From a virus, in the IMG/VR virus record IMGVR_UViG_3300002520_000024, positions 1-64,000 of that record: a stretch of 64,000 bases of DNA; one strand, written 5' to 3'. The notes under the pieces were generated by a model, which had not been told where the DNA came from, made no database searches, and worked only from the letters and a program-made list of their open reading frames with translations. The position numbers and the translations under genes were made by a program. Of the stretch, positions 9,259 through 46,447 are shown in pieces; position 1 is the first letter of the stretch, and every line of letters begins with the position of its first letter.

Positions 9259-9301
9259 ATAGTAGGTGACAAGGAATAAAAAAACCGTGAGCAGGGTCAC
9301 G
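9259..9301 (-). promoter_or_regulatory. class-II-type promoter with CRP-like dyad
   Basis: Dyad CGTGAGCAGGGTCACG at 9286-9301. -10 TACTAT (minus strand) at 9259-9264, 29 nt from the dyad centre. Confidence 0.6.
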
Positions 9302-9325
9302 GTTTTGATTATTACTGTTTAGGTG

Positions 9326-9787
9326 CTATACGCCGCTTTTTTGCAGCATAGACCGCGCTTTAAGCAAGGCCGCAATAATTGCCTCCTGCTCTGCGATATA
9401 TTCCATTATCCAGCCATCAAGGGCGCGGCATGCTTCATCAGCAAAGGCCGTTATTGCAGCCTTGCCAGCGTCCTCTAATATGTAGCCATGGCAAGAGGCA
9501 GCAGCCCCCAGGCTAGAAACCTCGAACTTGTCGAAGTGCAACCCTTTAATTGAGGTTGTCGGAATAGATGATCCGGCGTCAATATACCAATCATCCTTTA
9601 GGCTTTGTTTCATCTTGTAGGGGTATTTGTTCAGGCTACCATAAATAGCCAAGCCCCCTTTCTCCGCGCTCACTGTTACCGTGGGGTGTCCGTGTGATAG
9701 TCTGACCCGTGCGGTAACAGTAACCAGGCTTTTGCCATTGTTCGCAGCGATAAAGTCAATCGCCTCTTGCTTGCGTGAATCACTCAT
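9326..9787 (-). CDS. hypothetical protein
   Basis: 153-aa ORF. Conserved leader CAAGGAAAGAGGG. Confidence 0.7.
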   Translation of the reverse strand: MSDSRKQEAIDFIAANNGKSLVTVTARVRLSHGHPTVTVSAEKGGLAIYGSLNKYPYKMKQSLKDDWYIDAGSSIPTTSIKGLHFDKFEVSSLGAAASCHGYILEDAGKAAITAFADEACRALDGWIMEYIAEQEAIIAALLKARSMLQKSGV

Positions 9788-9823
9788 TTAATAACCCTCT
9801 TTCCTTGCGCTGTTGATAGGGTA

Positions 9824-9866
9824 AATATAGCCAAGGTCCAAATAAAAAACCGTGAGCAGTGTCACG
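9824..9866 (-). promoter_or_regulatory. class-II-type promoter with CRP-like dyad
   Basis: Dyad CGTGAGCAGTGTCACG at 9851-9866. -10 TATATT at 9824-9829, 29 nt from the centre. Confidence 0.65.
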
Positions 9867-9887
9867 GTTTTAATAAAGGCTTTTTAT

Positions 9888-10148
9888 TTAGGAGATCTGT
9901 TGGACTGTTATTTTAACAGTGCGTGATCCGCCCCAGCGCCCGACTACGTTAGCCGAAAATTCGACACCATCAGCAACGGGGGCCATGTTGCTAATACTGT
10001 AATTTTTGCCAAAGTTGGTACGGATTGCGCTATTGGCGGCGGCCAGGTGATCCAGGGGCTCCCCCTTCTCTTTGACGCTGACGGAAGCAGATCCACGGGG
10101 CGCACCGGATGCGGACAGATTCACGATCTTGACTACAAATTTTTTCAT
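9888..10148 (-). CDS. hypothetical protein
   Basis: 86-aa ORF. RBS AAGGAAG. Confidence 0.65.
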   Translation of the reverse strand: MKKFVVKIVNLSASGAPRGSASVSVKEKGEPLDHLAAANSAIRTNFGKNYSISNMAPVADGVEFSANVVGRWGGSRTVKITVQQIS

Positions 10149-10163
10149 TTTGCGGACTTCCTT

Positions 10164-10328
10164 TTATTGGGTAATTACGGCCACCAGGGCGGCGGCTTTG
10201 ACGTTCAACCAGTGCCCCAAAATCGGGGCACTCTTCCAGATTATCAGACCATAGGCGGCAATCAGTCCCACTTTCTTTGATCCGGTGATCAGCTTGGCCG
10301 CCTTGGTTGCCTTTTCATCTACAAACAC
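10164..10328 (-). CDS. possible small membrane protein (54 aa, GTG start)
   Basis: AGGTGG lies 5 nt before the GTG. Hydrophobic segment GLIAAYGLIIW...AAALVAVI. Fills the gap between two genes. Confidence 0.3.
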   Translation of the reverse strand: MFVDEKATKAAKLITGSKKVGLIAAYGLIIWKSAPILGHWLNVKAAALVAVITQ

Positions 10329-10338
10329 GGCTGCCACC

Positions 10339-11241: not shown

Positions 11242-11289
11242 GATATCTCTTTCCTTGTGTTAGCTGGGGCGGCTGCCCCAGTGGTTTAA

Positions 11290-11331
11290 ATATTACTCGA
11301 ACCAGGATTAAAAACAGTGATCAATGTCTCA
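11290..11331 (-). promoter_or_regulatory. class-II-type promoter with CRP-like dyad
   Basis: Dyad AGTGATCAATGTCTCA at 11316-11331. -10 TAATAT at 11290-11295, 28 nt from the centre. Confidence 0.55.
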
Positions 11332-11712: not shown

Positions 11713-11750
11713 TGCTTGACCCTCTTTCCGTGTGGTGTATTGATACTTGC

Positions 11751-11792
11751 AGTATAGCGACCACTATTTAAATAACAGTGATCGCCGTCACA
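11751..11792 (-). promoter_or_regulatory. class-II-type promoter with CRP-like dyad
   Basis: Dyad AGTGATCGCCGTCACA at 11777-11792. -10 TATACT at 11751-11756, 28 nt from the centre. Confidence 0.6.
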
Positions 11793-11794
11793 AA

Positions 11795-12373: not shown

Positions 12374-12394
12374 GGTGTTGCCCTCTTTCCTTGC

Positions 12395-12423
12395 GGCGGC
12401 CCCGCCGGATATCGGGGGGCCTA
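12395..12423 (-). repeat. 29-nt GC-rich hairpin at the 5' end of a transcript (copy 1)
   Basis: GGCGGCCCCGCCGGATATCGGGGGGCCTA is identical to 14178-14206. It starts a few nt after the predicted TSS. Confidence 0.6.
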
Positions 12424-12432
12424 CTGGTGTTG

Positions 12433-12475
12433 ATACTGGCACAAGCCAGGGAATAAAACAGTGATCACTGTCTCA
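12433..12475 (-). promoter_or_regulatory. class-II-type promoter with CRP-like dyad
   Basis: Dyad AGTGATCACTGTCTCA at 12460-12475. -10 CAGTAT at 12433-12438, 29 nt from the centre. Confidence 0.5.
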
Positions 12476-12718: not shown

Positions 12719-12752
12719 GTGGTGCCTCTTTCCTTGTGTTGTTGACGGGTTA

Positions 12753-12795
12753 AATGTAGCCCACGCCGTAGAAAATAACCGTGACGCCGGTCACA
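12753..12795 (-). promoter_or_regulatory. class-II-type promoter with CRP-like dyad
   Basis: Dyad CGTGACGCCGGTCACA at 12780-12795. -10 TACATT at 12753-12758, 29 nt from the centre. Confidence 0.65.
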
Positions 12796-14161: not shown

Positions 14162-14177
14162 CTGTCTATTCTCCATT

Positions 14178-14206
14178 GGCGGCCCCGCCGGATATCGGGG
14201 GGCCTA
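14178..14206 (-). repeat. 29-nt GC-rich hairpin at the 5' end of a transcript (copy 2)
   Basis: Identical to 12395-12423. Confidence 0.6.
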
Positions 14207-14218: not shown

Positions 14219-14261
14219 ACTATCGCACAGGTTTTACAGGTTGTCCGTGACAGCGATTACA
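14219..14261 (-). promoter_or_regulatory. class-II-type promoter with CRP-like dyad (inside the 3' end of the upstream gene)
   Basis: Dyad CGTGACAGCGATTACA at 14246-14261. -10 GATAGT at 14219-14224, 29 nt from the centre. Confidence 0.5.
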
Positions 14262-15507: not shown

Positions 15508-15549
15508 ATAATAGCGGGGTCACAGAATAAAACAGCGACCCCGATCACA
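15508..15549 (-). promoter_or_regulatory. class-II-type promoter with CRP-like dyad
   Basis: Dyad AGCGACCCCGATCACA at 15534-15549. -10 TATTAT at 15508-15513, 28 nt from the centre. Confidence 0.6.
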
Positions 15550-16341: not shown

Positions 16342-16384
16342 ACTATAGCGGCCATCTTTTAAAAAAACCGTGCTGGTTGTCACA
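16342..16384 (-). promoter_or_regulatory. class-II-type promoter with CRP-like dyad
   Basis: Dyad CGTGCTGGTTGTCACA at 16369-16384. -10 TATAGT at 16342-16347, 29 nt from the centre. Confidence 0.65.
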
Positions 16385-16581: not shown

Positions 16582-17368
16582 TGGCATGGCGCTTGCATGG
16601 GTCGGGGGGCGACAGGCAAGAGCTGTGCCAAGTTCGCGCCATGCAAAAGGAAAGGCGAGCCAGAAAATCGGTATGCAAAGCCCGTGCCAAAATGGCGGGC
16701 TACCCCTCGCAGAAAAAACGGGGGCATGCAAGAGACGTGCCAACATAGGCGGATCCCTCCCTAGACATTTTAGGGACACAAACCCAAGCAAGGGCCGTGC
16801 CAGTTTTTTACTTTTCTTGCCAGGTAGCCAAAAAAACCGCCAGCCCAGCAAAAAGCGTGCCAAGACGCAACGCCGAAAAAAGGGCGAGCATCCACAGCAA
16901 ATAACATGCCAAGATCACCATGATCCGGCCTCCATTAGATCGGTTTCCTAGTGCCGATAACCCTAGCCCAATGGCAAGAAAAAACCAGTGATCGGCGTCA
17001 CATTTTCACCCTGTAAAGGCTAAAAACTTTTGCCGTCAAAAACCGTGCCAACAATGCACCGTTTTTGTGATTCACGTCAAATACTTAACACACAAGGAAA
17101 AACGGGGGCCGTACCATGCAAAAACGGGGCCAGATCACCCCCTATAGAGCAGGATCTCCAACGTATGCAAACCCCGTGCCAACCCATGCCGAAAATCGGG
17201 GCCGACTGGCCGATCATAGTAGTGCATCTAGTAAGAGATCTGATCCCTTTGCGGTAGCAAATTACGTGCCACAAATAAAACTTTCCTCCTCCAGATCGCT
17301 TGTCCCGTGCGCCGCTTCCTTGCACCATGAAAATAATAACGCGCCTTCTCCATGCAAGGCCCGTGCCA
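16582..17368. repeat. tandem array of sigma54 -24/-12 consensus-like elements (iteron-like)
   Basis: Eleven minus-strand copies start at 16615, 16674, 16727, 16787, 16847, 16896, 17035, 17117, 17166, 17256 and 17353 (16 nt each). One plus-strand copy lies at 16582-16597. No credible ORF in the region. Confidence 0.7.
16960..17002 (-). promoter_or_regulatory. possible class-II-type promoter inside the repeat array
   Basis: Dyad AGTGATCGGCGTCACA at 16987-17002. Weak -10 TAGGGT at 16960-16965, 29 nt from the centre. Confidence 0.4.
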
Positions 17369-17399
17369 CGTCACGGATTTTCTACGCCGTGAAAAACTT

Positions 17400-17461
17400 T
17401 GTGACGCCGCTCACACTTTTTTACTTTGTCGCCTTGCGCCTTCTTTTTTCTTGCCTATAGT
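17400..17461 (+). promoter_or_regulatory. sigma70-like promoter with upstream CRP-like dyad (class-I-like position)
   Basis: Dyad TGTGACGCCGCTCACA at 17400-17415. TTGCGC (17434-17439), 16-nt spacer, TATAGT (17456-17461). Dyad centre is at about -60. Confidence 0.45.
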
Positions 17462-17511
17462 CAAAGGGCACTAAGGCGAACCCGCCACAACCACGAAAAG
17501 GAAATCTGACC

Positions 17512-17772
17512 ATGAAAGCAAAAGAAGTTATCCAGACCTTGGGCCGCCAAACCCGCAACGCCGCTTTTGTCGAGTGCCTGCCCGTGTCCCTTCTTTTTGG
17601 TGACACCTCCACCACTTATCTCGGTGGCGAGGCCGTACCGCCCAGCGCCAAATATCCGACCCGCGCACAATTCAAAATCCGTGCCAAGGTTGCGGCGCTG
17701 GTCGGTTGCTCCACGGGCGACTTTGAGGCCATCGATCGCCACCTCAACAACGCCGCCAGTTACCGCGCATAA
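17512..17772 (+). CDS. hypothetical protein
   Basis: 86-aa ORF. RBS AAAGGAAA. Confidence 0.55.
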   Translation: MKAKEVIQTLGRQTRNAAFVECLPVSLLFGDTSTTYLGGEAVPPSAKYPTRAQFKIRAKVAALVGCSTGDFEAIDRHLNNAASYRA

Positions 17773-17789
17773 GCAAAGGATGTGCCAAA

Positions 17790-17999
17790 ATGAAAAGCCT
17801 TGTTCAAGCCGTAGATCTGGGGACGGCTCCCCGTATGTTTGATCTCTACATTGGGCTGATCCGTGTCGGGTATGTCGGGCAGGTTGGCGAGTGCCGTTGG
17901 CGGGGCTGGTTCAACGGGCACGGGCAGATCGTGGGCGATACCCTTTTGCAAGTTTTGGGCCAAGCCGAAACCATCGCCCAAGAGGGGGACAAGGCATGA
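17790..17999 (+). CDS. hypothetical protein
   Basis: 69-aa ORF. Confidence 0.5.
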   Translation: MKSLVQAVDLGTAPRMFDLYIGLIRVGYVGQVGECRWRGWFNGHGQIVGDTLLQVLGQAETIAQEGDKA

Positions 18000-18112
18000 T
18001 CGACAGTCTGGTTTTTCTGGCCCTCTTTGTGGGGTCGGTGATCGGGGCCGCTGTGACGGGCGGCCTAGTTCCGGCTCTGGTTGTGCTCGTGCTTTTCTCC
18101 ATCGCCGCCTAG
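17996..18112 (+). CDS. small membrane protein (38 aa)
   Basis: ATGA overlap with the upstream stop. Sequence MIDSLVFLALFVGSVIGAAVTGGLVPALVVLVLFSIAA. Confidence 0.4.
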   Translation: MIDSLVFLALFVGSVIGAAVTGGLVPALVVLVLFSIAA

Positions 18113-18340
18113 CAAAACCCGTGCCATCTTTTTATGCGCCGATCTGACTAGATCGCGCTATTCAATAGTTGAGAGGGGGCCTTTATGGTTATGGCGCAAC
18201 GGGGGGCCGATCGCTGTAATCGCGTCCTGCGCGTTTTGGCGAGGGCCGTTTTTGCCGATCGGGCCGTTTTTGGCCTGGCAACCTGGCACGGTTTTTGATC
18301 ACTGCTTATCCATTCATTTGGTTGCATAGACAAAAAACTA

Positions 18341-18401
18341 TGTGATCAACGTCACATTTTCTTTCTTTTCCCCGCGCAAGTTTTCGGGGCTTGGCTATAC
18401 T
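18341..18401 (+). promoter_or_regulatory. promoter with perfect CRP-type dyad upstream
   Basis: Dyad TGTGATCAACGTCACA at 18341-18356. -10 TATACT at 18396-18401. Dyad centre is at about -60. Confidence 0.4.
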
Positions 18402-18455
18402 TATCACATCAGGTAGGGAATGACTCCCCGCCGCACGTGAGAAGGAATGCCAGCC

Positions 18456-18680
18456 ATGAAAACCGTTCACACTATCTTGTCAGGCCTGCTAAACCCGTCA
18501 GTCTGCGAACTGGAGGAGGCCGCCTATCAGGTCGGTCGTTTCGAGCAGTCCGCTATTATGGATCCCGAGCTGGAGCGCCTGATCAGTGAGACTTATCCCG
18601 ACAGCGATCTGATCTGGTCTCGTTGCTATGACGCGCACCAGCAGGGCCGCGCTGACCAAGACGCCCAAGAAGCCGCCTAA
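18456..18680 (+). CDS. hypothetical protein
   Basis: ATG 18456 lies 9 nt after GAAGGA. Confidence 0.55.
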   Translation: MKTVHTILSGLLNPSVCELEEAAYQVGRFEQSAIMDPELERLISETYPDSDLIWSRCYDAHQQGRADQDAQEAA

Positions 18681-18721
18681 TCCGAATCAAAAACCGTACC
18701 AACTTTTAAGGAATCGATATC

Positions 18722-19483
18722 ATGAAAATGCCCGCCCTTGTCGAACTGAAAACCGCTGCCCCGTCCTTTGACCGTTGCGCCGAGATTGCAAGAGTCGTGC
18801 CACTTCAAGAAGGTTGCGAGCTGGTGATCACCGACACCATGATCCGCCTGATTGCCCAGAATGGGGCCGAGTTCACATTCTATCGGGGCGACTGTGCCCG
18901 CGCTGTGACTGAGGGCATGTTTACTTGCCTGATGGCTCTTCGTGCCGCGCCTGCTCCCCACTATGTCGAGATGGGGCGCAAGGGCGACAAGGTGAACACT
19001 CACAAGGTGATCGGCATTGACCACCGTCCGATCCTCCAGACTGAGGATGACTGCGAACTGTGCGACCCCGAGCAGGCGAACCTGTTTAGTGTCTATGTCG
19101 TGCTCGCCGTTGATGGCTGGGAACTTTCCTACCACTACGCCGATCACCAGACCCTTGACGCGGCAAAAGAGCAGGCCGATCTGTTGGCACAGGTTTTGAA
19201 TGTGGTTCACACCTACACCACCGAGAGCGAGGGGGAGCAAGTCCAGAGCGAGCCGGACGCTGACGGATTCGGGGCCGAGCATGATCGCGCCGTAGTCGAG
19301 GCCCTGATGCACATTGCCGAACACGGGGCGCAGGATCTGTCTATCCTGTCTCACGTGCTGGAGTACGATCTCACGTCTGCCGAGTGCAGCCTGATCGGGC
19401 GGTTCCGCCGTGGTGCCAACGTAGACGGGGATCACGCTGCCCTTGCCGCACTGGCCCAAGCCATCCAGAATGGCGAACGGTAA
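18722..19483 (+). CDS. hypothetical acidic protein
   Basis: 253-aa ORF. RBS AAGGAA. The antisense ORF 18677..19501 looks non-protein-like. Confidence 0.65.
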   Translation: MKMPALVELKTAAPSFDRCAEIARVVPLQEGCELVITDTMIRLIAQNGAEFTFYRGDCARAVTEGMFTCLMALRAAPAPHYVEMGRKGDKVNTHKVIGIDHRPILQTEDDCELCDPEQANLFSVYVVLAVDGWELSYHYADHQTLDAAKEQADLLAQVLNVVHTYTTESEGEQVQSEPDADGFGAEHDRAVVEALMHIAEHGAQDLSILSHVLEYDLTSAECSLIGRFRRGANVDGDHAALAALAQAIQNGER

Positions 19484-19504
19484 AAGCAAACCCCATGCCA
19501 ACTT

Positions 19505-19527
19505 GCCCGCCCTGTGCGGGCTTTTTT
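19505..19527 (+). terminator. rho-independent terminator
   Basis: GCCCGC-cctgt-GCGGGC followed by T6. Confidence 0.7.
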
Positions 19528-19654
19528 ACGTCCGGATTTTTCGGGGCTACCCTGGCCCGTTGGCATGATACTTGCTAGGCGCAATCACAGAAGAGTTGGC
19601 ATGCTTTTTGCGGGCCTACCCCCTCTCTCACAGATCTATGACAAAAGTTTTTTT

Positions 19655-20915: not shown

Positions 20916-20958
20916 AGCATAGCAGCGGCCGGTGCCGGGATCTGCGAGGTGCGTCACA
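20916..20958 (-). promoter_or_regulatory. class-II-type promoter with CRP-like dyad
   Basis: Dyad TGCGAGGTGCGTCACA at 20943-20958. -10 TATGCT at 20916-20921, 29 nt from the centre. Confidence 0.55.
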
Positions 20959-23298: not shown

Positions 23299-23330
23299 AG
23301 GAACCTCCGTTATCGATGTGGCCACTTTAC

Positions 23331-23360
23331 AAAGAAAAAGGGGCTCTGTCTGAGAGCCCC
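23331..23360 (-). terminator. rho-independent terminator
   Basis: Minus strand reads GGGGCTCT-cagac-AGAGCCCC followed by TTTTTCTTT. Confidence 0.75.
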
Positions 23361-23377
23361 ATCACATATCTAGAACG

Positions 23378-23638
23378 TCACACCTTATCGATGTACTCGG
23401 TCAGCTCATTCGTCTGGAACAGGTACTCGATATAGGACTTCGGCACCGGCACGATCGCGCTCTGGTTGCTGCCTACGCCAACGGCTATGCGGTTGGTATC
23501 CTTGGCCTCAACATGCTGGTAAATCCGGAAGGTTGGGATCTGCGTGTCCTTGAACTCCTCCATGATGCAGAAGTGCTTGCTGCCATAGCACGGGCCAGAA
23601 AACATGATGAAGGAGCGAGGGAAGTCTTCGCTGGGCAT
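23378..23638 (-). CDS. hypothetical protein, or C-terminal part of the upstream gene
   Basis: 86-aa ORF with protein-like composition. Its frame stays open upstream of the ATG and overlaps the 3' tail of 23508..24653. Confidence 0.5.
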   Translation of the reverse strand: MPSEDFPRSFIMFSGPCYGSKHFCIMEEFKDTQIPTFRIYQHVEAKDTNRIAVGVGSNQSAIVPVPKSYIEYLFQTNELTEYIDKV

Positions 23639-24690: not shown

Positions 24691-24733
24691 ACTATAAATG
24701 AAAAAACCGGGCCATGTTGTGACCCGGGTCGCA
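24691..24733 (-). promoter_or_regulatory. class-II-type promoter with CRP-like dyad
   Basis: Dyad TGTGACCCGGGTCGCA at 24718-24733. -10 TATAGT at 24691-24696, 29 nt from the centre. Confidence 0.6.
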
Positions 24734-26372: not shown

Positions 26373-26702
26373 TCATTTTGACTCCGCCCTTTCATGGTCA
26401 TGGACAACAGCCATGTACCCGAGGATGTACGAGGCGGAGAAGCTGCCAAGACGCGGCCGGAGGGTAGTGCTTGCCTCCAGGGTGCCGTAGCGGGCAATCA
26501 TCGTCTCGGCCGCGGTCTCCCCGGCAACAAACTCCTCGTCGTAGTTCATGACGAAATAGAGGGTGCGCAGCTCGGTATTGAGCCCTGACTGCACGATGGC
26601 CAACGGCGCGTTAATCTGCATATCTGCAGGCGGCGCCTTGTAACGATCATCGCGGCGAATGGCGTGCATCCGGTCGCGGATTGCTTCTTCGCTCAGGCGC
26701 AT
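26373..26702 (-). CDS. hypothetical protein
   Basis: 109-aa ORF. Confidence 0.6.
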   Translation of the reverse strand: MRLSEEAIRDRMHAIRRDDRYKAPPADMQINAPLAIVQSGLNTELRTLYFVMNYDEEFVAGETAAETMIARYGTLEASTTLRPRLGSFSASYILGYMAVVHDHERAESK

Positions 26703-27073: not shown

Positions 27074-27141
27074 ACGAAGGCTCCTTCTGATGAATAGGGC
27101 CAGCTTGCCACAACCGGCCCCACTTTACTGTGACCGGGGTC

Positions 27142-27297
27142 TCAATCCTGATCACCAACCTTCTTGCCGGGCACAGTGCCGATGTCCTTGCCGGTACCCT
27201 CGTCCACCAGATGCTGGGGGACATGCGGGGACCAGTCTTTGCCTGGCTCATAGCCGGTCAACTGAGGCATCGGCTCAATCTGTCTGGTTTGCGTCAT
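27142..27297 (-). CDS. small hypothetical protein (51 aa)
   Basis: ATG 27297 overlaps the upstream stop (ATGA). Confidence 0.4.
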   Translation of the reverse strand: MTQTRQIEPMPQLTGYEPGKDWSPHVPQHLVDEGTGKDIGTVPGKKVGDQD

Positions 27298-29755: not shown

Positions 29756-29825
29756 ACTGTAAAATATCTAGTGTTTTGATTCTGTGAGGTACGTCTCAGA
29801 ACAGAAAAGTGGGTTGTGAGATAGT
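29756..29825. promoter_or_regulatory. bidirectional promoter sharing one CRP-like dyad
   Basis: Dyad TGTGAGGTACGTCTCA at 29783-29798. Minus-strand -10 TACAGT at 29756-29761 and plus-strand -10 GATAGT at 29820-29825, each 29 nt from the dyad centre. Confidence 0.6.
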
Positions 29826-29859: not shown

Positions 29860-30564
29860 ATGTTCAAGAGCTACATCAGATCCAAACACAAAAACCTGCC
29901 GATCGGTTTAAAGGTGACCCATGTGACCTGGATAGCCCCCAGCATGAAGAACGAGGTGACCGTGGTGCTCAGCCATGGGGGTTCTCGGGCTGGTTACGGC
30001 GAAGGCCATAAAGAGCTGCATGCTCTCACCTACACGGCTACTGTCACCGGCGCAAACAGCGGGCGGACCCTGGACGCTGCCCAGAATGAGCTGCTGATGC
30101 CGCAGGCACAGGCCAATGCCCAGCTGTGGAAATTCATTCGGGACTGTGAGCGACACCCTAGCACCGAAAGCCTTACCATCGAGCTGTACGGCCGTCCATA
30201 TGCCCTGCCTTTCTTCTACGTGCTGGAGCCGGCAGACCTGCAGGTTGGCGACGTCATCCAGCTGCGCAAGGGTGCACGGTACCGCATCAACTCCATGGAT
30301 CCTGATGGATGGCGCGTGACCTGGTACGCCTCTGCCAAGGATGTGCGGGAGGCCAGCAAATACCCCCAGCCATTCAAGACTGAAGCACCGCATTTCATCG
30401 CAAACCCGGGCCAGATGCTCCGTGCCACGATGGCCAAGCGCGTCATCAAAGCCCACATCGCAGGAGAAGACACCAATGATCAAGAGCACCTTTATTCGCA
30501 TGGAGATGGAGACTGTCGATGCGATAGCCGATATGGATGCAGAATTGGCCCAATTGCTTATTGA
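29860..30564 (+). CDS. hypothetical protein
   Basis: ATG 29860. The 3' end overlaps the next gene by 89 nt and looks low-quality. Confidence 0.55.
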   Translation: MFKSYIRSKHKNLPIGLKVTHVTWIAPSMKNEVTVVLSHGGSRAGYGEGHKELHALTYTATVTGANSGRTLDAAQNELLMPQAQANAQLWKFIRDCERHPSTESLTIELYGRPYALPFFYVLEPADLQVGDVIQLRKGARYRINSMDPDGWRVTWYASAKDVREASKYPQPFKTEAPHFIANPGQMLRATMAKRVIKAHIAGEDTNDQEHLYSHGDGDCRCDSRYGCRIGPIAY

Positions 30565-30814
30565 GCACAACGCCTTGGTAGCCAAGCTGTCGGTGAAGAT
30601 GGCAAAGCTGGCAGACCAGCAGCGCGGGGAAGCCGATCTGTTCAAGGCTGTTACCGATCTAACCGCACGGGCAGTGCTGGCACAAGCGTTATTCCGCGCC
30701 CGCGGTAGCGCCAGCGCAGCGGCTCGGCGCCTTGGCATGAATCGCGGCACCTTTCGCCGCTGGGCCAAGGAGCTGGGGTTGCACAAAGCCAATGACGCCG
30801 GTTGCCGGCTGTAG
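30476..30814 (+). CDS. Fis/NtrC-type HTH (HTH_8-like) DNA-binding protein
   Basis: ATG 30476 preceded by AGGAGAAG. C-terminus GSASAAARRLGMNRGTFRRWAKELGL matches the Fis-family HTH pattern. Confidence 0.6.
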   Translation: MIKSTFIRMEMETVDAIADMDAELAQLLIEHNALVAKLSVKMAKLADQQRGEADLFKAVTDLTARAVLAQALFRARGSASAAARRLGMNRGTFRRWAKELGLHKANDAGCRL

Positions 30815-31749: not shown

Positions 31750-31792
31750 TGTGAAGTGGCGCACAGTATCGACTGACAATCGGTGCTACAGT
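31750..31792 (+). promoter_or_regulatory. class-II-type promoter with CRP-like dyad
   Basis: Dyad TGTGAAGTGGCGCACA at 31750-31765. -10 TACAGT at 31787-31792, 29 nt from the centre. Confidence 0.6.
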
Positions 31793-34236: not shown

Positions 34237-34312
34237 CTGTGGCGCCGGTCACAACACGGTACACACGGACGTGATACCTTCTACCTATCGAAATGCCAAC
34301 GGGAAAGCCATC

Positions 34313-38241: not shown

Positions 38242-38267
38242 GGGGCTTCGGCCCCTTTTCTTTTTTT
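38242..38267 (+). terminator. rho-independent terminator
   Basis: GGGGC-ttcg-GCCCC followed by TTTTCTTTTTTT. Confidence 0.8.
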
Positions 38268-38308
38268 GTGACCAACGGCACAGACACCACACCGCAATGG
38301 TGCTAATT
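38266..38308 (+). promoter_or_regulatory. class-II-type promoter with CRP-like dyad
   Basis: Dyad TGTGACCAACGGCACA at 38266-38281. -10 TAATTT at 38303-38308, 29 nt from the centre. Confidence 0.55.
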
Positions 38309-38334
38309 TTCTGGCATCACAAACAGGAGGTCAC

Positions 38335-38880: not shown

Positions 38881-40032
38881 ATGGGTTCCCCGAACAAGAT
38901 TGACGACGAGCAGTTCAAGCAGCTGCTGATGGAAAAGAAAACCATGGCGGAGATCGCCAAGATCTTTGGTTGCTCAGAGCGGCGCCTCTATATCAGAAAG
39001 TCGCACCTCACTCGATCTGGGTGGGCGCCGGAGCATGGCCTGACCACCCAGTATGACCTCGGGTTCATGCTGGGGAAGGTGACCATCCAGCGCGATGCCG
39101 AGGGTAACGTTGAGCGTACCTGGGAACGGATGGTGCAGGACAACGACAAGTTCAGCCAGTTGCTTGCCGAGAGCATGCAGGCCATGGTTGAGGACTTGCC
39201 CAGGTTCAAGCCGGTTCCGGCCACCCTTGGGGCTGCAGCTGACCTGATGACGGTGATCCCGCTGGGTGACCCGCATATCGGCATGCTCTCGTGGGGCGAG
39301 GAAACGGGGCAGGACTGGGATCTGAAGATTGCAGAGCGGTATTTCTGCAAGGCATTTTCAGAGATCGTGATGTCGGCGCCGCGTTCAAAGGAGTGCGTCA
39401 TCCTCAACCTTGGGGACTTCTTCCACTCTGACAACATGGAAGGCCTCACATCCAGATCCAAGCACGCGCTCGATATGGACAGCCGCTACGGCAAGATGAT
39501 CCGGGTTGGGGTGAAGATTATCCGCCAGATGATTGAGTCTGGTTTGCGGCACCATGACGTGGTTCGCGTGGTGAACTGCATTGGCAACCATGATGACATC
39601 GGCAGCCAGTGGCTAAACGTCCTGCTGCACCATGCCTATGAGAACGAGCCTCGGGTGATCATTGACCGCACCGTTGGCCCGTTCAACTACGTGGTGTGGG
39701 GCGACGTGTTGTGGGGTGCACACCACGGGCACAGCTGCAAGGCCAGCCAGCTCGCCGGCGCGATGGCTTGCGATATGGCGAAGGAGTGGGGCAAGGCCAA
39801 GTGGCGCTACTGGTACACCGGCCACATCCACAACGACTCAGCCAAGGAGTTTCCGGGGGTGAAGTGGGAGAGCTTCCGAACCCTCGCAGCCAAGGACGCC
39901 TATGCCACCTGGGGTGGGTACCGAGCTGGGCAGGACATCAAGGCTATCGTTCTCCACCGGAAGCGCGGCGAGATTGCGCGGTTCCAGTTCAACATCCAAC
40001 ACCTCAAAGAGGCGACGGGGTATTACCTATGA
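38881..40032 (+). CDS. calcineurin-like metallophosphoesterase with N-terminal HTH
   Basis: Motifs GDPHIG, LGDFFHSD, GNHD, HHGH and GHIH. N-terminal MAEIAKIFGCSERRLYIRK is HTH-like. Confidence 0.75.
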   Translation: MGSPNKIDDEQFKQLLMEKKTMAEIAKIFGCSERRLYIRKSHLTRSGWAPEHGLTTQYDLGFMLGKVTIQRDAEGNVERTWERMVQDNDKFSQLLAESMQAMVEDLPRFKPVPATLGAAADLMTVIPLGDPHIGMLSWGEETGQDWDLKIAERYFCKAFSEIVMSAPRSKECVILNLGDFFHSDNMEGLTSRSKHALDMDSRYGKMIRVGVKIIRQMIESGLRHHDVVRVVNCIGNHDDIGSQWLNVLLHHAYENEPRVIIDRTVGPFNYVVWGDVLWGAHHGHSCKASQLAGAMACDMAKEWGKAKWRYWYTGHIHNDSAKEFPGVKWESFRTLAAKDAYATWGGYRAGQDIKAIVLHRKRGEIARFQFNIQHLKEATGYYL

Positions 40033-42210: not shown

Positions 42211-42253
42211 TGCGGGGTAGCTCACAGCAATGCGCCGCGGTAATGGGTAGTAT
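42211..42253 (+). promoter_or_regulatory. class-II-type promoter with CRP-like dyad
   Basis: Dyad TGCGGGGTAGCTCACA at 42211-42226. -10 TAGTAT at 42248-42253, 29 nt from the centre. Confidence 0.5.
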
Positions 42254-42280
42254 CTATTCATCAACAAGAGGAGACGCGAC

Positions 42281-42626: not shown

Positions 42627-42637
42627 AGAGAGACAAG

Positions 42638-43921: not shown

Positions 43922-43925
43922 TCGC

Positions 43926-44426: not shown

Positions 44427-44450
44427 GCCGCTACCCGCGGCCTTTTCTTT
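44426..44450 (+). terminator. rho-independent terminator
   Basis: GGCCGC-taccc-GCGGCC followed by TTTTCTTT. Confidence 0.75.
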
Positions 44451-44504
44451 GCCTGCTGTCCGGCGGTACACTACCCAAGCACAAACATCAGAGGAGTGCA
44501 TGCC

Positions 44505-44765
44505 GTGGATCTACTCAGTATTCTAGCCGGGTACAGCCCGGTGCTCATTGGCTGGCTGTTCAACCTGCTCTATATGGTGACAGCTGTCGTTACAGTTTTC
44601 TGGGTGCTGCGCCACCTGGACAAAAGGCTTGGGGTGAACTTCCGTGATACTTTACTTCCTATCCTTACCTCTAACCCAATCGCTTTGGCGATATATCGTG
44701 GCGCTTGGATTTTTGGTTGCTGCCTGCTGGCCGGCCTCATGCTCGGCGGCGGTGGAGTCGGTTAA
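44505..44765 (+). CDS. holin candidate (3 TM)
   Basis: GTG 44505 lies 8 nt after GAGGAG. Three hydrophobic helices. Immediately upstream of the endolysin. Confidence 0.55.
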   Translation: MDLLSILAGYSPVLIGWLFNLLYMVTAVVTVFWVLRHLDKRLGVNFRDTLLPILTSNPIALAIYRGAWIFGCCLLAGLMLGGGGVG

Positions 44766-45279
44766 GCCGTCGATCTCGGCCAGCATTCGGCAGGCCTGGG
44801 CCAGGTCGCTCCCTGAGTATCGCTGGGAGCTTGGGTTGGGGCAGGCCTACCAGGAGTCACGGTACCGGCTTGATGCCGTGTCACCTGTAGGCGCCCAAGG
44901 GTTGTTCCAGTTCATGCCTGGCACTTGGCGAGACATGCAAAAGCGTGGGGTAGTGCCGTTCGACGTATCGGCGTTCGATCCTAAATGGGCGACCATAGCC
45001 GGTGCGGTCTATATGGCCCAGCTGGTTAAAAGCTGGAGCAGCCCACGCCCTTTGCGGGATCGCTACCTGCTGGCGCTGGCCTCGTACAACGCCGGGCTTG
45101 GAAACATCCTGGCAGCACAGAAGCGGTGCCGTGGTGCGGTGCTGTATGAGGAAATCATGACCTGCCTGCCGATGGTAACAGGTCACCACTCGAAGGAGAC
45201 AATAGGCTATGGGCGCTCAATTGAAGGTCATGTTGCTCGTTATCTCGCTGTGTCTGGTGGTCGCCGCTTGGATTGGTAG
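44644..45279 (+). CDS. SLT-domain lytic transglycosylase (endolysin), possibly signal-anchored
   Basis: YQESRY (catalytic Glu), GLFQFMPGTW and ASYNAGLGN. Start uncertain: GTG 44644 would give the hydrophobic N-terminus IVALGFLVAACWPASCSAA, or GTG 44752. Confidence 0.75.
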   Translation: MILYFLSLPLTQSLWRYIVALGFLVAACWPASCSAAVESVKPSISASIRQAWARSLPEYRWELGLGQAYQESRYRLDAVSPVGAQGLFQFMPGTWRDMQKRGVVPFDVSAFDPKWATIAGAVYMAQLVKSWSSPRPLRDRYLLALASYNAGLGNILAAQKRCRGAVLYEEIMTCLPMVTGHHSKETIGYGRSIEGHVARYLAVSGGRRLDW

Positions 45280-45643
45280 CCTTTACCTGGCTTTCGATTA
45301 CGGAGGAACCCTGTGCAGGGCTGACGTTGCTGAGGCCAACGCCGAGAAGGTGGTAGAGAAAGATCAGCTGCAGGGGGACCTGGCTGGCGTGGAGAACAAG
45401 ACTGCAAAGGAGCTTGCCGAGGTAGGGAAGAACAGGCCACAGCTGACACGCGAGGTGGTTCGATATGAAACGGTTTATGTTAATCGCTCTCGTGATTGTG
45501 CAGACGCTAATGCTGAGCGCCTGCGCATCCTCAACGAAGCAGCCGGGGCACAACCTGGACCCGGACAGTTACCCAGCGCAGCTGATGACACCACCGGAGC
45601 CAACGATCTACGTGGACCCAAAGGCAGAGGCAACGCTGATTGA
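45209..45643 (+). CDS. i-spanin (Rz-like)
   Basis: N-terminal TM segment, coiled-coil periplasmic part, and position after the endolysin. Confidence 0.65.
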   Translation: MGAQLKVMLLVISLCLVVAAWIGSLYLAFDYGGTLCRADVAEANAEKVVEKDQLQGDLAGVENKTAKELAEVGKNRPQLTREVVRYETVYVNRSRDCADANAERLRILNEAAGAQPGPGQLPSAADDTTGANDLRGPKGRGNAD

Positions 45644-45749
45644 CGAGGTTGCCCGCATGGAGCAGTTGAGAACCTGGAGGCTGCAGCTTATCGGGTTGCA
45701 GGAATGGGTTAACGAACTCTACCGGAAGAATAAGGAAAAGCCCCAGTGA
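45465..45749 (+). CDS. o-spanin lipoprotein (Rz1-like), overlapping the Rz gene in another frame
   Basis: Signal peptide with lipobox LSAC. Pro-rich mature N-terminus. Confidence 0.65.
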   Translation: MKRFMLIALVIVQTLMLSACASSTKQPGHNLDPDSYPAQLMTPPEPTIYVDPKAEATLIDEVARMEQLRTWRLQLIGLQEWVNELYRKNKEKPQ

Positions 45750-45764
45750 TGGGGCTTTTTGTTT
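45739..45764 (+). terminator. rho-independent terminator
   Basis: AGCCCC-agtgat-GGGGCT followed by TTTTTGTTT. Confidence 0.75.
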
Positions 45765-45765
45765 A

Positions 45766-46353
45766 TCATTGGCTGCGCGGCTGCAGCGACCAGCCCCAGT
45801 TGCTGATCGGGCAGATTATAAGCGCCCCACCAGGAGCAGCCGCCTTCTGGTAGTCATAACCGGTAAGAATCATTGTCAGGCGGGTGTGCAGGGCCTCTAC
45901 ATCCTTCTGGCTGTATCTGACCACCCGGCTACCGCTGTTATTGGCAGTGACCACCGTCAGCTCAAAGGCTGCCAGCAGTACCTCGGTGATGGTGTGCTGC
46001 GACAGCTTGGATGCGTCCAGTGTCCCGAGGTCTGACCCCTTCGCCAGGATCTGGCCTGCAGCGTCGAACAGTTCAAGGTCATTGCGTCCAATGTAGAAGG
46101 ATACGACCTCCCCCTTGGATGTAGCCCCCCACGGGTAGCAATATCTCAGGCTCAGGGTTATCAGGGTCTGGTCCTCCCCCACCCGGCGACTGAAGCCAGC
46201 CTCCCAGGTGTACCCAGCATTCATACGACCGTCCTGGGTGAGGTACAGGCCCACAATCTTGGCGTCGGCCTCTTTCAACCCGGGGGCTATGGCGTGCAGC
46301 GGGATGTGTTTGAGCATGTCGCTATTGGAGCGCAGGATATTAATGTTGACCAT
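45766..46353 (-). CDS. hypothetical protein; lone reverse-oriented gene (moron-like)
   Basis: ATG 46353 (MVNINILR) preceded by AAGGAGGA. Has its own promoter. No family recognised. Confidence 0.7.
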   Translation of the reverse strand: MVNINILRSNSDMLKHIPLHAIAPGLKEADAKIVGLYLTQDGRMNAGYTWEAGFSRRVGEDQTLITLSLRYCYPWGATSKGEVVSFYIGRNDLELFDAAGQILAKGSDLGTLDASKLSQHTITEVLLAAFELTVVTANNSGSRVVRYSQKDVEALHTRLTMILTGYDYQKAAAPGGALIICPISNWGWSLQPRSQ

Positions 46354-46377
46354 ATGGTCCTCCTTAGTGGTGAGCCA

Positions 46378-46447
46378 ACTATACCAGCAGGCTTGCGCAA
46401 TTACTGTGAGGTGGCGCACAGTAATAACCCGCTGGCTTTGGTACTCT
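46378..46447. promoter_or_regulatory. bidirectional promoter sharing one CRP-like dyad
   Basis: Dyad TGTGAGGTGGCGCACA at 46405-46420. Minus-strand -10 TATAGT at 46378-46383 and plus-strand -10 TACTCT at 46442-46447, each 29 nt from the centre. Confidence 0.6.

What the first reader, a model, noticed from the sequence alone, without database searches (positions are those of the whole stretch)
9259..46447. Phage-wide promoter class: CRP-type dyad TGTGA-N6-TCACA fixed 28-29 nt upstream of a TAnnnT -10, with no -35
At least 17 intergenic sites share one architecture. A 16-bp dyad resembling the CRP site (TGTGA-N6-TCACA) has its centre 29 nt (sometimes 28) upstream of a -10 hexamer. That places the dyad at about -41.5, the textbook class II activator position, and no TTGACA-like -35 is present.

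Dyad start and -10 hexamer:
- Minus-directed: 9286 TACTAT; 9851 TATATT; 11316 TAATAT; 11777 TATACT; 12460 CAGTAT; 12780 TACATT; 14246 GATAGT; 15534 TATTAT; 16369 TATAGT; 16987 TAGGGT; 20943 TATGCT; 24718 TATAGT.
- Plus-directed: 31750 TACAGT; 38266 TAATTT; 42211 TAGTAT.
- Firing both ways: 29783 and 46405.
- Two more perfect or near-perfect dyads (17400 and 18341) sit about 60 nt upstream of plus-strand promoters, a class I-like position.

The late structural region (49.6-64 kb) shows no such sites. This implies that early and middle transcription depends on a dimeric activator. That activator is either host CRP-cAMP, which would tie infection to host carbon status, or an unrecognised phage-encoded protein.
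Basis: partly seen in the sequence, partly recalled or inferred. Interest (0 to 1): 0.85.

Follow-up and report, generated by a model that had tools for sequence, protein, structure and literature searches.

The report
CRP-type dyad promoters across a phage
An uncultured ~94-kb phage and its close relatives drive nearly all early and middle genes from promoters where a CRP-like 16-bp palindrome replaces the usual -35 box, so the infection programme probably depends on one dimeric activator, most likely the host's CRP-family regulator.

Summary
TGTGA-N6-TCACA (≤1 mismatch) occurs 18 times against 1.8 expected. In an unbiased test, a TAnnnT -10 starts exactly 37 nt from the dyad start in 18 cases; no other offset except the adjacent 36 exceeds 3.

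I count 23 such promoters in the window, with the dyad centre at -41.5. Three more have the dyad at about -60 plus a -35-like hexamer. All face a gene, with 18-53 nt leaders in most cases. About half carry an extended -10. Ordinary -35/-10 promoters are absent from the early region.

The architecture is conserved by position in relatives. One 82-kb relative (TerL 73% identical) has 15 such promoters genome-wide, although its early genes have turned over almost completely.

The binding protein is unresolved. No phage CRP homologue exists. Both phages encode a Fis-type HTH protein, but these two proteins are not detectable orthologues, and the site fails Fis-type criteria. The site keeps the two G's per half-site typical of CRP recognition in 36 of 37 cases. 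A host CRP-family activator is the best reading (about 0.5).

The host is unknown and nothing has been tested experimentally.

Side-find: 22 σ54-type -24/-12 elements lie in 16.6-19.6 kb.

The parts
2583..2625 (+). Class II-type promoter: dyad TGCGGGCCAGCGCACA, TG-extended -10 CATTCT. A canonical terminator lies immediately upstream. Drives gene 2657-3073.
9259..9301 (-). Class II-type promoter (subclass A: A-run, dyad, T-run): CGTGACCCTGCTCACG, -10 TACTAT.
   Evidence: the hairpin (-12.2 kcal/mol) may also terminate transcription
9824..9866 (-). Class II-type promoter (subclass A): CGTGACACTGCTCACG, -10 TATATT.
11290..11331 (-). Class II-type promoter (subclass A, offset 36): TGAGACATTGATCACT, -10 TAATAT.
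11751..11792 (-). Class II-type promoter (subclass A, offset 36): TGTGACGGCGATCACT, -10 TATACT.
12433..12475 (-). Class II-type promoter (subclass A): TGAGACAGTGATCACT, TG-extended -10 CAGTAT.
12753..12795 (-). Class II-type promoter (subclass A): TGTGACCGGCGTCACG, -10 TACATT.
14219..14261 (-). Class II-type promoter: TGTAATCGCTGTCACG, TG-extended -10 GATAGT. The dyad overlaps the 3' end of the upstream gene.
15508..15549 (-). Class II-type promoter (subclass A, offset 36): TGTGATCGGGGTCGCT, -10 TATTAT.
16342..16384 (-). Class II-type promoter (subclass A): TGTGACAACCAGCACG, -10 TATAGT.
16960..17002 (-). Class II-type promoter (subclass A): TGTGACGCCGATCACT, -10 TAGGGT.
20916..20958 (-). Class II-type promoter (subclass B, no T-run): TGTGACGCACCTCGCA, TG-extended -10 TATGCT.
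23324..23366 (-). Class II-type promoter: TGTGATGGGGCTCTCA, -10 TAAAGT. A terminator hairpin is embedded between the dyad and the -10.
24691..24733 (-). Class II-type promoter: TGCGACCCGGGTCACA, -10 TATAGT. A terminator hairpin is embedded between the dyad and the -10.
27102..27144 (-). Weaker class II-type promoter: TGAGACCCCGGTCACA, TG-extended -10 CAAGCT.
29756..29798 (-). Leftward arm of a bidirectional promoter sharing the dyad at 29783-29798; -10 TACAGT.
29783..29825 (+). Rightward arm of the same bidirectional promoter; TG-extended -10 GATAGT. Its operon contains the Fis-type gene.
31750..31792 (+). Class II-type promoter (subclass B): TGTGAAGTGGCGCACA, TG-extended -10 TACAGT. A terminator lies immediately upstream.
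34238..34280 (+). Class II-type promoter: TGTGGCGCCGGTCACA, TG-extended -10 TACCTT.
38267..38309 (+). Class II-type promoter: TGTGACCAACGGCACA, TG-extended -10 TAATTT. A terminator lies immediately upstream. Equivalent site in the relative at relR 18367.
42211..42253 (+). Class II-type promoter: TGCGGGGTAGCTCACA, -10 TAGTAT. Conserved at L001 3176, L005 3191 and relR 26821.
46378..46420 (-). Leftward arm of a bidirectional promoter sharing the dyad at 46405-46420; TG-extended -10 TATAGT.
46405..46447 (+). Rightward arm of the same bidirectional promoter; TG-extended -10 TACTCT. The dyad and both -10 elements are invariant in 4 phages while the spacers diverge.
48030..48091 (+). Class I-like promoter: degenerate dyad TCAGAGAGTGATCACA centred at -60.5, -35-like TTGGCC, -10 TAATGT. 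Precedes 48158-49132 and the terminase/structural block. The same spacing is kept in 5 relatives.
17400..17461 (+). Perfect dyad TGTGACGCCGCTCACA centred at -60.5 relative to -10 TATAGT, with a -35-like TTGCGC. It lies inside the sigma54-element array, so its role is uncertain.
18341..18401 (+). Perfect dyad TGTGATCAACGTCACA centred at -59.5 relative to -10 TATACT. It lies inside the sigma54-element array, so its role is uncertain.
30476..30814 (+). Gene for a 112-aa Fis-type HTH protein (Pfam HTH_8), the only recognisable DNA-binding protein found in the window. It is the rival candidate for the dyad-binding factor.

Best explanation
These are genuine promoters for the host's sigma70-type RNA polymerase in which a 16-bp palindrome (consensus cTGTGA-N6-TCACAg) replaces the -35 element.

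The palindrome is centred 29.5 bp upstream of the first base of a TAnnnT -10, which is often TG-extended. That corresponds to -41.5. A dimeric activator bound there would touch RNA polymerase as a class II activator does.

A few promoters use the same palindrome about two helical turns further upstream (about -60) together with a weak -35, the class I arrangement.

The activator is most likely the host's CRP-family regulator, which is already present when the DNA enters. Early and middle transcription of this phage clade would then be gated by the host signal that controls that regulator.

Shown here: the motif, its spacing, its orientation toward genes, and its conservation.
Inferred: the transcription start sites, activation as opposed to repression, and the identity of the protein.
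For: Enrichment and spacing:
- The dyad is enriched tenfold.
- The dyad-to-(-10) offset has a single sharp peak at 37 in an unbiased scan of the window. The same peak appears independently in a relative: 14 -10 elements at offset 37, and 17 dyads against 1.6 expected.

Promoter features:
- Sites are intergenic, face the next gene, and leave leaders of 18-53 nt in most cases.
- The -10 has A and T invariant (25/25), G at -14 in 19/25, and A at the predicted +1 in 16/25.
- There is no usable -35, but G at -33 is kept in 33/37 sites. This fits residual sigma region-4 contact.
- No other promoter type is found in the early region.

Conservation:
- In the divergent promoter, TGTGA, the C..C of the right half-site and both -10 elements are invariant in 4 phages while the spacers differ.
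- The distal arrangement is kept at offset 56 in the window and four relatives (55 in a fifth), with a -35-like hexamer.

Identity of the factor:
- 36/37 sites keep G.G-N8-C.C. 27/37 have at most 1 mismatch to TGTGA-N6-TCACA. None fits NtcA, FNR or Fis-type patterns.
- The motif is identical in two phages whose early regions share only one protein. Their Fis-type proteins are not detectable orthologues.
- A factor needed at the first promoters must exist before infection.

From memory: the CRP consensus AAATGTGATCTAGATCACATTT; class II at -41.5 and class I at -61.5; galP1 as a -35-less, extended -10, CRP -41.5 promoter.
Against: - The host is unknown, so it is not shown to have a CRP-family protein.
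- No start site or binding has been measured.
- Both dyad-bearing phages encode a Fis-type HTH protein placed right after a dyad promoter. Such genes are rare in the other ~1.4 Mb of related phage DNA examined.
- About half of the promoters have an extended -10 and might work without any activator.
- The distal sites sit at -60.5/-59.5, 1-2 bp off the canonical CRP class I position.
- More distant relatives, including Stenotrophomonas phage Summit, lack the motif entirely.
- No phage is known to route essentially all early transcription through CRP (one search found none).
Confidence: 0.5

Rival explanations
1. Same promoter architecture, but the dyad is read by the phage's own Fis-type HTH protein (window 30476-30814; relR 3690-4202). 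This protein would act as a self-amplifying class II activator. Basal transcription from the extended -10 promoters makes the first molecules, which then boost all dyad promoters.
For: - HTH_8 hits score above the Pfam cut-off in both phages (28.0 and 39.0 bits).
- The closest solved relatives are E. coli Fis and the NtrC DNA-binding domain.
- Both genes sit just downstream of a dyad promoter.
- Fis-type genes are otherwise found only once in 1.58 Mb of fetched loci, and are absent from Summit, which lacks the dyad.
- NifA, whose C-terminal DNA-binding HTH is of the Fis type (domain assignment from memory), recognises TGT-N10-ACA, the same outline as this dyad (PMC2820453).
- Phage Fis mimics exist: lambda NinH (PMC7166090).
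- From memory: Fis can activate from -41 at proP P2.
Against: - The two phage proteins share only about 28% identity in the core and have different recognition helices (MNRGTFRRW against MHRNTLRSK), lengths and genome positions, while the dyad is identical.
- tblastn and an exhaustive phmmer search of 1.84 billion proteins do not link them. The window protein is an orphan.
- Fis/NinH sites are G-N13-C with an AT-rich core. Here 0/37 sites can form G-N13-C and the core is 71% GC. Only 9/37 keep a full TGT-N10-ACA.
- Early promoters would depend on a protein that is not yet made.
Confidence: 0.2
2. The dyad is read by another phage protein with no recognisable DNA-binding domain. It could be made early or delivered with the virion.
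For: - Most early and middle proteins are ORFans with no Pfam or PHROG match.
- One acidic 109-aa early protein (26373-26702) is the only early protein kept between the two phages, and in the relative it follows a dyad promoter.
- A 127-aa protein just outside the window is conserved in the relative (37% identity) and looks HTH-like by eye.
- The motif is confined to a narrow clade.
Against: - No candidate has any detectable DNA-binding signature.
- The conserved early protein is acidic (pI 5.6).
- An unrelated protein would have to copy both the CRP core specificity and its position.
- Single-sequence structure models of two positional candidates were uninformative.
Confidence: 0.12
3. The promoters are constitutive extended -10 promoters, and the dyad is an operator. 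A dimeric repressor (phage or host) sits over the -35 region to shut early and middle genes off, or to keep them silent.
For: - 11 of 23 promoters have TG at -15/-14 and 18 of 23 have G at -14, so many could fire without a -35.
- A site overlapping -35 is also a classic repressor position.
- The Fis-type gene lies downstream of such a promoter, which would allow negative autoregulation.
Against: - Spacing fixed to within 1 bp at -41.5, plus a second discrete position about 19 bp further upstream that comes with a -35-like hexamer, is the grammar of activation. Occlusion would not need it.
- Five promoters have poor -10 hexamers (CATTCT, CAGTAT, GATAGT twice, CAAGCT) that would be weak alone.
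- No repressor-type protein or lysogeny module was found.
Confidence: 0.1
4. The dyads are RNA hairpins, that is, intrinsic terminators between gene cassettes, and their closeness to the -10 elements is incidental.
For: - In subclass A the dyad is flanked by an A-run and a T-run.
- Sites 9286, 9851 and 12780 are picked up by the terminator scan.
- Sites 9286 and 9851 fold at about -12 kcal/mol.
Against: - Most dyad hairpins are weak (-2 to -9 kcal/mol), and subclass B sites have no T-run.
- Where real terminators occur, they are separate hairpins just upstream of the dyad or between the dyad and the -10.
- The sequence itself is conserved (G.G/C.C in 36/37), not just the pairing.
- The dyad-to-(-10) distance is fixed.
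- Two dyads are shared by divergent promoters.
Confidence: 0.03

Closest known systems
Class II CRP-dependent sigma70 promoters of enterobacteria (e.g. galP1; synthetic CC(-41.5)); details from memory
   Same: - 16-bp core TGTGA-N6-TCACA with both G:C pairs per half-site nearly invariant.
- Centre at -41.5.
- No -35 hexamer; -10 often TG-extended.
- A companion class with the site about two turns further upstream and a -35 present.
   Different: - Here it is the near-exclusive promoter type of a phage's early and middle genes (23 in 64 kb), not a scattered regulon.
- The central spacer is GC-rich, and G is fixed at -33.
- The distal sites sit at -60.5/-59.5 and not at -61.5.
- Neither the host nor CRP dependence is known.
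NtcA-type promoters in T4-like cyanophages (PMC3037559)
   Same: - Phage genes are predicted to be driven through binding sites of a host CRP-family regulator.
- This would tie phage expression to a host metabolic signal.
- NtcA promoters are also described as class II type, with a TAN3T -10 and no -35 (from memory).
   Different: - The motif is GTA-N8-TAC; 0/37 of the sites here fit it.
- Cyanophages have 1-16 such sites alongside their own T4-type early, middle and late promoters.
- Here no alternative promoter type is visible in the early region.
Phage Mu Mor/C-dependent middle and late promoters; P2 Ogr-dependent late promoters (from memory)
   Same: Phage promoters that lack a -35 and carry a dyad bound by a small dimeric activator, used by host sigma70 polymerase.
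   Different: - Those activators are phage-encoded, act on a handful of middle or late promoters, and bind different dyads at -43.5 or -55.
- No Mor-family or Ogr-type protein was found here.
- The sites here include the earliest genes.
Fis and its phage lambda mimic NinH (PMC7166090)
   Same: Both dyad-bearing phages encode a small Fis-type HTH protein. The Fis family forms homodimers that bind and bend palindromic DNA.
   Different: Fis and NinH recognise G-N13-C around an AT-rich core. The phage dyad has even symmetry, a 71% GC core and G.G/C.C determinants.
T4 MotA/AsiA middle promoters (from memory)
   Same: A phage-wide promoter class in which a specific box replaces the -35 while the host -10 is kept.
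   Different: - The MotA box is an asymmetric 9-mer at -30 read by a monomeric phage protein after sigma remodelling.
- Here the element is a palindrome at -41.5, and no MotA or AsiA homologue was detected.

Membership tests
Class II CRP-dependent promoter | 22-bp site with the core TGTGA-N6-TCACA, and G:C pairs at both G positions of each half-site | tested here: met
   18 matches with <=1 mismatch against 1.83 expected. Among 37 sites from two phages, G.G-N8-C.C is kept in 36, and 27 have <=1 mismatch.
Class II CRP-dependent promoter | Site centred at -41.5 relative to the transcription start | tested here: inconclusive
   The dyad centre is 29.5 bp upstream of the -10 in 20 of 23 window sites (28.5 bp in three). 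An A lies 7 nt after the hexamer in 16/25. This equals -41.5 if the hexamer spans -12 to -7. Start sites are not mapped.
Class II CRP-dependent promoter | Weak or absent -35 with a functional -10 | tested here: met
   Best -35 match averages 2.3/6. No sigma70-consensus hit falls at these sites. TAnnnT is invariant at A and T, and TG is present at -15/-14 in 11/23.
Class II CRP-dependent promoter | Binding by, and dependence on, a CRP-family protein and its ligand | not testable with these tools
   Needs EMSA or footprinting, and reporters in crp/cya mutants.
Class II CRP-dependent promoter | Host encodes a CRP-family regulator with this specificity | not testable with these tools
   Host unidentified: no organism names, no related loci in GTDB genomes, no tRNAs.
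Class I CRP-dependent promoter | Site centred near -61.5 (same helix face as -41.5) with a -35 element present | tested here: inconclusive
   Centres at -60.5 (17400, 48030 and four relatives) and -59.5 (18341, L005), with -35-like hexamers such as GTGACT, TTGGCC and TTGCGC. This is 1-2 bp off the canonical position, and start sites are not mapped.
Fis/NinH-type binding site | G-N13-C signature (15 bp) with an AT-rich core (PMC7166090) | tested here: not met
   0/37 sites allow G-N13-C about the dyad centre. The central 6 bp are 71% GC.
NifA-type upstream activator sequence of sigma54 promoters | TGT-N10-ACA located about 100 bp or more upstream of a -24/-12 promoter (PMC2820453) | tested here: not met
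   Only 9/37 sites keep a full TGT-N10-ACA. The class II sites sit 21 nt upstream of a -10-type element, not upstream of GG-N10-GC. Only 17400 and 18341 lie near sigma54-type elements, and for those two the test is inconclusive.
NtcA-activated promoter | GTA-N8-TAC at -41.5 | tested here: not met
   0/37 sites.
Intrinsic (rho-independent) terminator | Stable GC-rich hairpin followed directly by a U-run | tested here: not met
   Only 9286 and 9851 reach about -12 kcal/mol. Most are -2 to -9 kcal/mol. Subclass B sites have no T-run.
Phage-encoded CRP homologue | A phage protein with cNMP-binding and CRP-type HTH domains | tested here: not met
   No Pfam hit among about 80 proteins. phmmer with E. 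coli CRP (sequence written from memory) against all six-frame ORFs gives a best E of 0.37.

The most novel reading that the evidence does not exclude
A clade of uncultured ~80-95-kb lytic phages has handed essentially all of its early and middle transcription to the host's cAMP-receptor-type regulator. Every early or middle operon start carries a class II (or class I) CRP site in place of a -35. Whether an infection proceeds would then be decided by the host's second-messenger state at the moment of DNA entry, a built-in metabolic gate on lytic development. The same phage also carries 22 sigma54-type -24/-12 elements in 3 kb. These could titrate, or be fired by, host sigma54 polymerase.
Probability: 0.4. 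Interest if true: 0.8.

Novelty: new variant of a known kind. Interest (0 to 1): 0.62.

Why it matters
Phages are generally thought to start infection from strong, self-sufficient host-type promoters, or with their own polymerase or sigma factors. Host activators are used only at a few decision points.

Here a single palindrome at the activator position is the only recurring promoter signal for early and middle genes. It has been kept while almost all early genes were replaced.

If the binder is host CRP, this is a clear case of a lytic programme wired to host physiological state. It would also predict conditional infection, for example dormancy in cells where the regulator is inactive.

If the binder is the phage's Fis-type protein, it would be a Fis-family protein with CRP-like specificity acting as a genome-wide class II activator.

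Either outcome is testable with a handful of oligonucleotides, because the sites are so uniform. The promoters would also make a compact, tunable set of regulated parts.

Tried and rejected
- **Close relatives among cultured phages.** No megablast match. The best TerL matches are about 45% identical.
- **Host identification.** No tRNAs. No names for NCBI members. Two genome-contig scans were empty. Run and assembly accessions are not in the literature.
- **Early-region homologues, to fetch the early regions of relatives.** 23508-24557 and 18722-19483 are ORFans.
- **The divergent 195-aa gene (45766-46353) as an autoregulated regulator.** No Pfam, PHROG or PDB match. The AF2 single-sequence model had pLDDT 34. 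It was not detected in the relative. Dropped.
- **The 86-aa protein 17512-17772 with a by-eye HTH.** CRP phmmer E=0.37. PDB hits are meaningless. AF2 pLDDT 48. Unresolved, with no support.
- **The 127-aa protein outside the window with a by-eye HTH.** No Pfam or PDB support and no similarity to Summit's HTH regulator.
- **No fold searches were run**, because both models were too poor.
- **Wider relatives.** Summit, and phages with TerL 46-50% identical, have neither the dyad nor a replacement palindrome at promoters.
- **An 'A-rich late promoter motif' near 48.06 kb and 7.5 kb.** The first is the spacer of a class I-like dyad promoter. The second belongs to terminators.
- **The 'iteron' reading of GCAA-N4-CGTGCCA.** Replaced by sigma54-type elements.
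- **My first tblastn result that the relative lacks a Fis-type gene was wrong.** A profile search found it.

Full report
**What the window is.** The 64-kb window is part of an uncultured phage genome of about 94-95.5 kb and 57% GC.
- It has no near relative among 50,697 deposited phages. Its large terminase is about 45% identical to those of SIO-2-like Vibrio siphophages and Stenotrophomonas phage Summit.
- Gene layout: a rightward DNA-metabolism block ends at about 7.5 kb. Small leftward ORFan genes occupy 8.2-16.9 kb. A large non-coding control region and a short rightward island occupy 16.9-19.5 kb. More leftward genes run from 19.6 to 29.6 kb. From 29.8 kb onward a long rightward block holds nucleotide-metabolism genes, the terminase (49.6 kb), DNA polymerase, portal and capsid genes.

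- TGTGA-N6-TCACA with at most one mismatch occurs 18 times against 1.83 expected; no shuffle out of 100 reaches 18.
- I took every dyad with up to two mismatches, regardless of context, and asked where a TAnnnT lies on either side. The offset histogram has one sharp peak: 18 at offset 37 and 3 at offset 36, with no other offset from 25 to 50 above 3.
- I count 23 promoters of the proximal type in the window. They lie in intergenic gaps, point at the next gene, and leave leaders of 18-53 nt in most cases.

**Promoter anatomy.** Aligned on the -10, A at position 2 and T at position 6 of the hexamer are invariant (25/25). G at -14 is present in 19/25 and T at -15 in 13/25, which is an extended -10. 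An A sits at the expected start point in 16/25.
- With the hexamer at -12 to -7, the dyad centre is at -41.5.
- No -35 is present. The best TTGACA match at 16-18 nt spacing averages 2.3/6.
- The general sigma70 scan finds one site in 8-28 kb against 8.9 +/- 3.6 expected, and none at these promoters.
- The base immediately after the dyad, which falls at -33 (the G of TTGACA), is G in 33/37 sites. Its mirror position on the far side is much less conserved. I read this as residual sigma contact and not as part of the palindrome. This is an inference.

**Two visual subclasses exist.**
- In the leftward 9-17 kb genes the dyad is flanked by an A-run and a T-run. Three of these sites are flagged as terminator-like. 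Only two fold at about -12 kcal/mol; the rest fold at -2.2 to -8.7 kcal/mol.
- Elsewhere there is no T-run, and genuine terminators are separate hairpins just upstream of the dyad or between the dyad and the -10.
- A terminator reading therefore cannot explain the class, although a few sites may do both jobs.

**A second, distal arrangement.** The two perfect dyads at 17400 and 18341 have their -10 at offsets 56 and 55.
- The same geometry occurs ahead of 48158-49132, the first gene of the block that leads into the terminase and structural genes.
- There, the window and four relatives place a TAnnnT at offset 56 (a fifth relative at 55), with a -35-like hexamer 17 nt upstream of it (16 nt in the window): GTGACT in four relatives, TTGGCC in the window.
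- So promoters with the dyad at about -60 keep a -35, and promoters with the dyad at -41.5 do not. That is the grammar of class I and class II activation (from memory).
- The distal centres, -60.5 and -59.5, are 1-2 bp off the canonical CRP position of -61.5.

**Conservation.**
- Terminase homologues define a clade: 75, 72, 72, 70 and 64% identity. I fetched their neighbourhoods.
- The divergent promoter at 46405 is kept in three relatives. TGTGA, the two C's of the right half-site and both flanking -10 elements are invariant, while the spacers diverge.
- Using the exonuclease 38881-40032 as an anchor, I found an 82-kb IMG/VR contig and walked 77.5 kb of it. Its identities to the window are TerL 73%, DNA polymerase 77%, capsid 68% and exonuclease 61%.
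- That contig has 17 dyads against 1.6 expected, 14 -10 elements at offset 37 and one at 36. This gives 15 promoter sites. They include two bidirectional sites, five leftward early-side promoters and two ahead of the replication module. None falls in the 40-66 kb portal-to-tail block.
- The two phages share only one protein across the whole early region. The signal has therefore outlived the genes it drives.
- More distant relatives lack it. Summit has 0 dyads against 1.9 expected. Three phages with TerL 46-50% identical have neither the dyad nor a substitute palindrome at promoters. In the other roughly 1 Mb of exonuclease-anchored loci, the background rate of the full architecture is about 0.3 per 21 kb, against 7 in the relative's first 21 kb.

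**Who binds? The phage proteins.**
- Pfam and PHROG scans of about 80 phage proteins show no CRP, sigma, Mor or repressor families.
- A six-frame search with E. coli CRP is negative, with a best E of 0.37 (the query sequence was written from memory).
- My first gene map had missed one gene. 30476-30814 (start context AGGAGAAG, 6 nt, ATG) encodes a 112-aa protein with a C-terminal Fis-type HTH: Pfam HTH_8 at 28 bits against a cut-off of 22. Its closest solved relatives are E. coli Fis helices B-D and the NtrC DNA-binding domain.
- tblastn did not find it in the relative. A small Fis-HTH profile did: a 168-aa protein, HTH_8 at 39 bits, about 50% identical to E. coli Fis in the core. It is the first gene after the relative's dyad promoter at 4258.
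- In 1.58 Mb of fetched loci the profile hits only these two and one unrelated 42%-GC fragment. Summit has none.

**Against the Fis-type candidate.**
- The two proteins are only about 28% identical in the core. They differ in recognition helix (MNRGTFRRW against MHRNTLRSK), in length, in domain order and in genome position.
- An exhaustive phmmer search of 1.84 billion representatives shows the window protein is an orphan that does not retrieve the relative's protein. Yet the dyad is the same in both phages.
- The site fails the family's known binding rule. Fis and lambda NinH recognise G-N13-C around an AT-rich core (PMC7166090). None of the 37 sites can form G-N13-C about the dyad centre, and the central six bases are 71% GC.
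- The NifA-type outline TGT-N10-ACA (PMC2820453) is complete in only 9/37 sites. The pattern G.G-N8-C.C, the positions CRP contacts (from memory), is kept in 36/37.
- The earliest promoters carry the dyad, so the factor should exist before any phage gene is expressed.

**Weighting.** I put a host CRP-family activator at about 0.5, the Fis-type protein at about 0.2, another phage or virion protein at about 0.12, an operator/repressor reading at about 0.1, and terminators at about 0.03.

**Limits.**
- The host is unknown. The Fis-like gene and the sigma54-type elements suggest a proteobacterium, but that is an inference.
- No start site, binding or regulation has been measured.
- About half of the promoters have TGn and could have basal activity.
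- Structure prediction of two positional candidates failed for lack of homologues.

**Comparison with known systems.**
- The closest functional match is the enterobacterial class II (and class I) CRP-dependent promoter, with galP1 as the archetype of a -35-less, extended -10, CRP -41.5 promoter (from memory).
- The closest phage precedent is the predicted use of NtcA sites by T4-like cyanophages, at 1-16 sites per genome alongside their own promoter classes (PMC3037559).
- Mu Mor/C, P2 Ogr and T4 MotA are analogous in logic but differ in protein, motif, position and scope (from memory).
- A literature search found no phage in which a CRP-type site is the general early and middle promoter element.
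- I therefore class this as a new variant of a known kind.

**Side-observation: sigma54-type elements.** The repeat I first took for an iteron (GCAA-N4-CGTGCCA) is the reverse complement of the sigma54 -24/-12 consensus TGGCACG-N4-TTGC (consensus from memory).
- The window has 31 matches to TGGCAC-N5-TTGC with at most one mismatch, against 8.8 +/- 3.1 expected.
- 22 of them lie in 16,582-19,611. Seventeen point leftward, and six sit in tandem at 49-60 bp spacing in a stretch without convincing ORFs.
- The relative has none. No phage sigma54 activator (AAA+ domain) was seen.
- The two perfect dyads lie inside this array. I could not explain it.

Noticed in passing
window 16582-19611 (also exact copies at 7753(+) and 49531(-)): A dense array of sigma54-type -24/-12 promoter-like elements (TGGCAC-N5-TTGC; many are perfect TGGCACG-N4-TTGCA/T). 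22 of the window's 31 matches (expected 8.8 +/- 3.1) lie in 3 kb. 17 point leftward, and six are in tandem at 49-60 bp spacing in a stretch without convincing ORFs. The array is absent from the 82-kb relative. No phage AAA+ sigma54 activator was found. It could be a holoenzyme sponge, a bank of sigma54 promoters, or part of an origin. It is unexplained.
   Followed up: partly
window 30476-30814 (+): Gene for a 112-aa Fis-type HTH protein that overlaps the end of the upstream ORF 29860-30564 by 89 nt in another frame. It is an orphan in a 1.84-billion-protein search, apart from its own cluster.
   Followed up: yes
window 26373-26702 (-); relative relR 6164-6457 (-): The only early-region protein conserved between the window phage and the 82-kb relative (50% identity). 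It is 109 aa, acidic (pI 5.6), and has no family match. In the relative it directly follows a dyad promoter. It could be a host-takeover or polymerase-binding factor.
   Followed up: partly
window about 12390-12420 and about 14175-14205 (minus strand, in 5' leaders): An identical GC-rich hairpin, taggccccccgatatccggcggggccgcc, lies in the predicted 5' leaders right after promoters 12460 and 14246. Other leaders (11316, 15534) carry different hairpins.
   Followed up: no
window 54934-56058 and 55872-57749: In the window the DNA polymerase is split into two overlapping ORFs. A strain variant (L002) has one 949-aa gene. This may be a frameshift or an assembly difference in the window sequence.
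   Followed up: no
window 60805-60820 and 61451-61466: Two good dyads in the structural region have no -10 at the promoter spacing. The one at 60805 lies 43 nt before the protease start codon and is conserved in L001 (20971) and L005 (20875). The one at 61451 is a perfect palindrome between two capsid-module genes.
   Followed up: partly
window 54723-54765, inside gene 54459-54923: GGTGATCTGTATCGCA followed by TAnnnT at offset 37 is conserved at the nucleotide level in five relatives, inside a gene with a CsrA domain (Pfam CsrA 28.2 bits, cut-off 27) just upstream of the DNA polymerase. It may be an internal promoter or just coding conservation.
   Followed up: partly
window 7621-7930: A very GC-rich stretch of about 300 nt without a convincing ORF, between the end of the rightward DNA-metabolism block (terminators at about 7540-7620) and the leftward early genes. 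It contains one exact sigma54-type element at 7753.
   Followed up: no
relatives relR about 32405, L011 about 2510, L010 about 1434, L001 about 8552: A conserved inverted repeat, CCTCTGCAAAGAGA, lies in the leader just downstream of the class I-like promoter that precedes the homologues of 48158. The window has a different sequence there.
   Followed up: no
L016 5083-5466 (about 3.5 kb upstream of the window start, same phage): A 127-aa basic protein right after the DEAD-box helicase gene, at the position where phage Summit annotates an HTH regulator. By eye it has an excisionase/MerR-like HTH (…AAAATGKDAKAIRATLQRWQKLRLIP…), but it has no Pfam or PDB support. It is conserved in the relative (37% identity).
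   Followed up: partly
L015 141, 6111, 15632, 21394: In a distant relative (TerL 46% identical), the palindrome (T)GCAAT(T/C)AATTGC(A) recurs four times; in three of the copies it lies immediately upstream of a Shine-Dalgarno sequence. It may be a translational operator or an RNA hairpin. It is unrelated to the dyad studied here.
   Followed up: no
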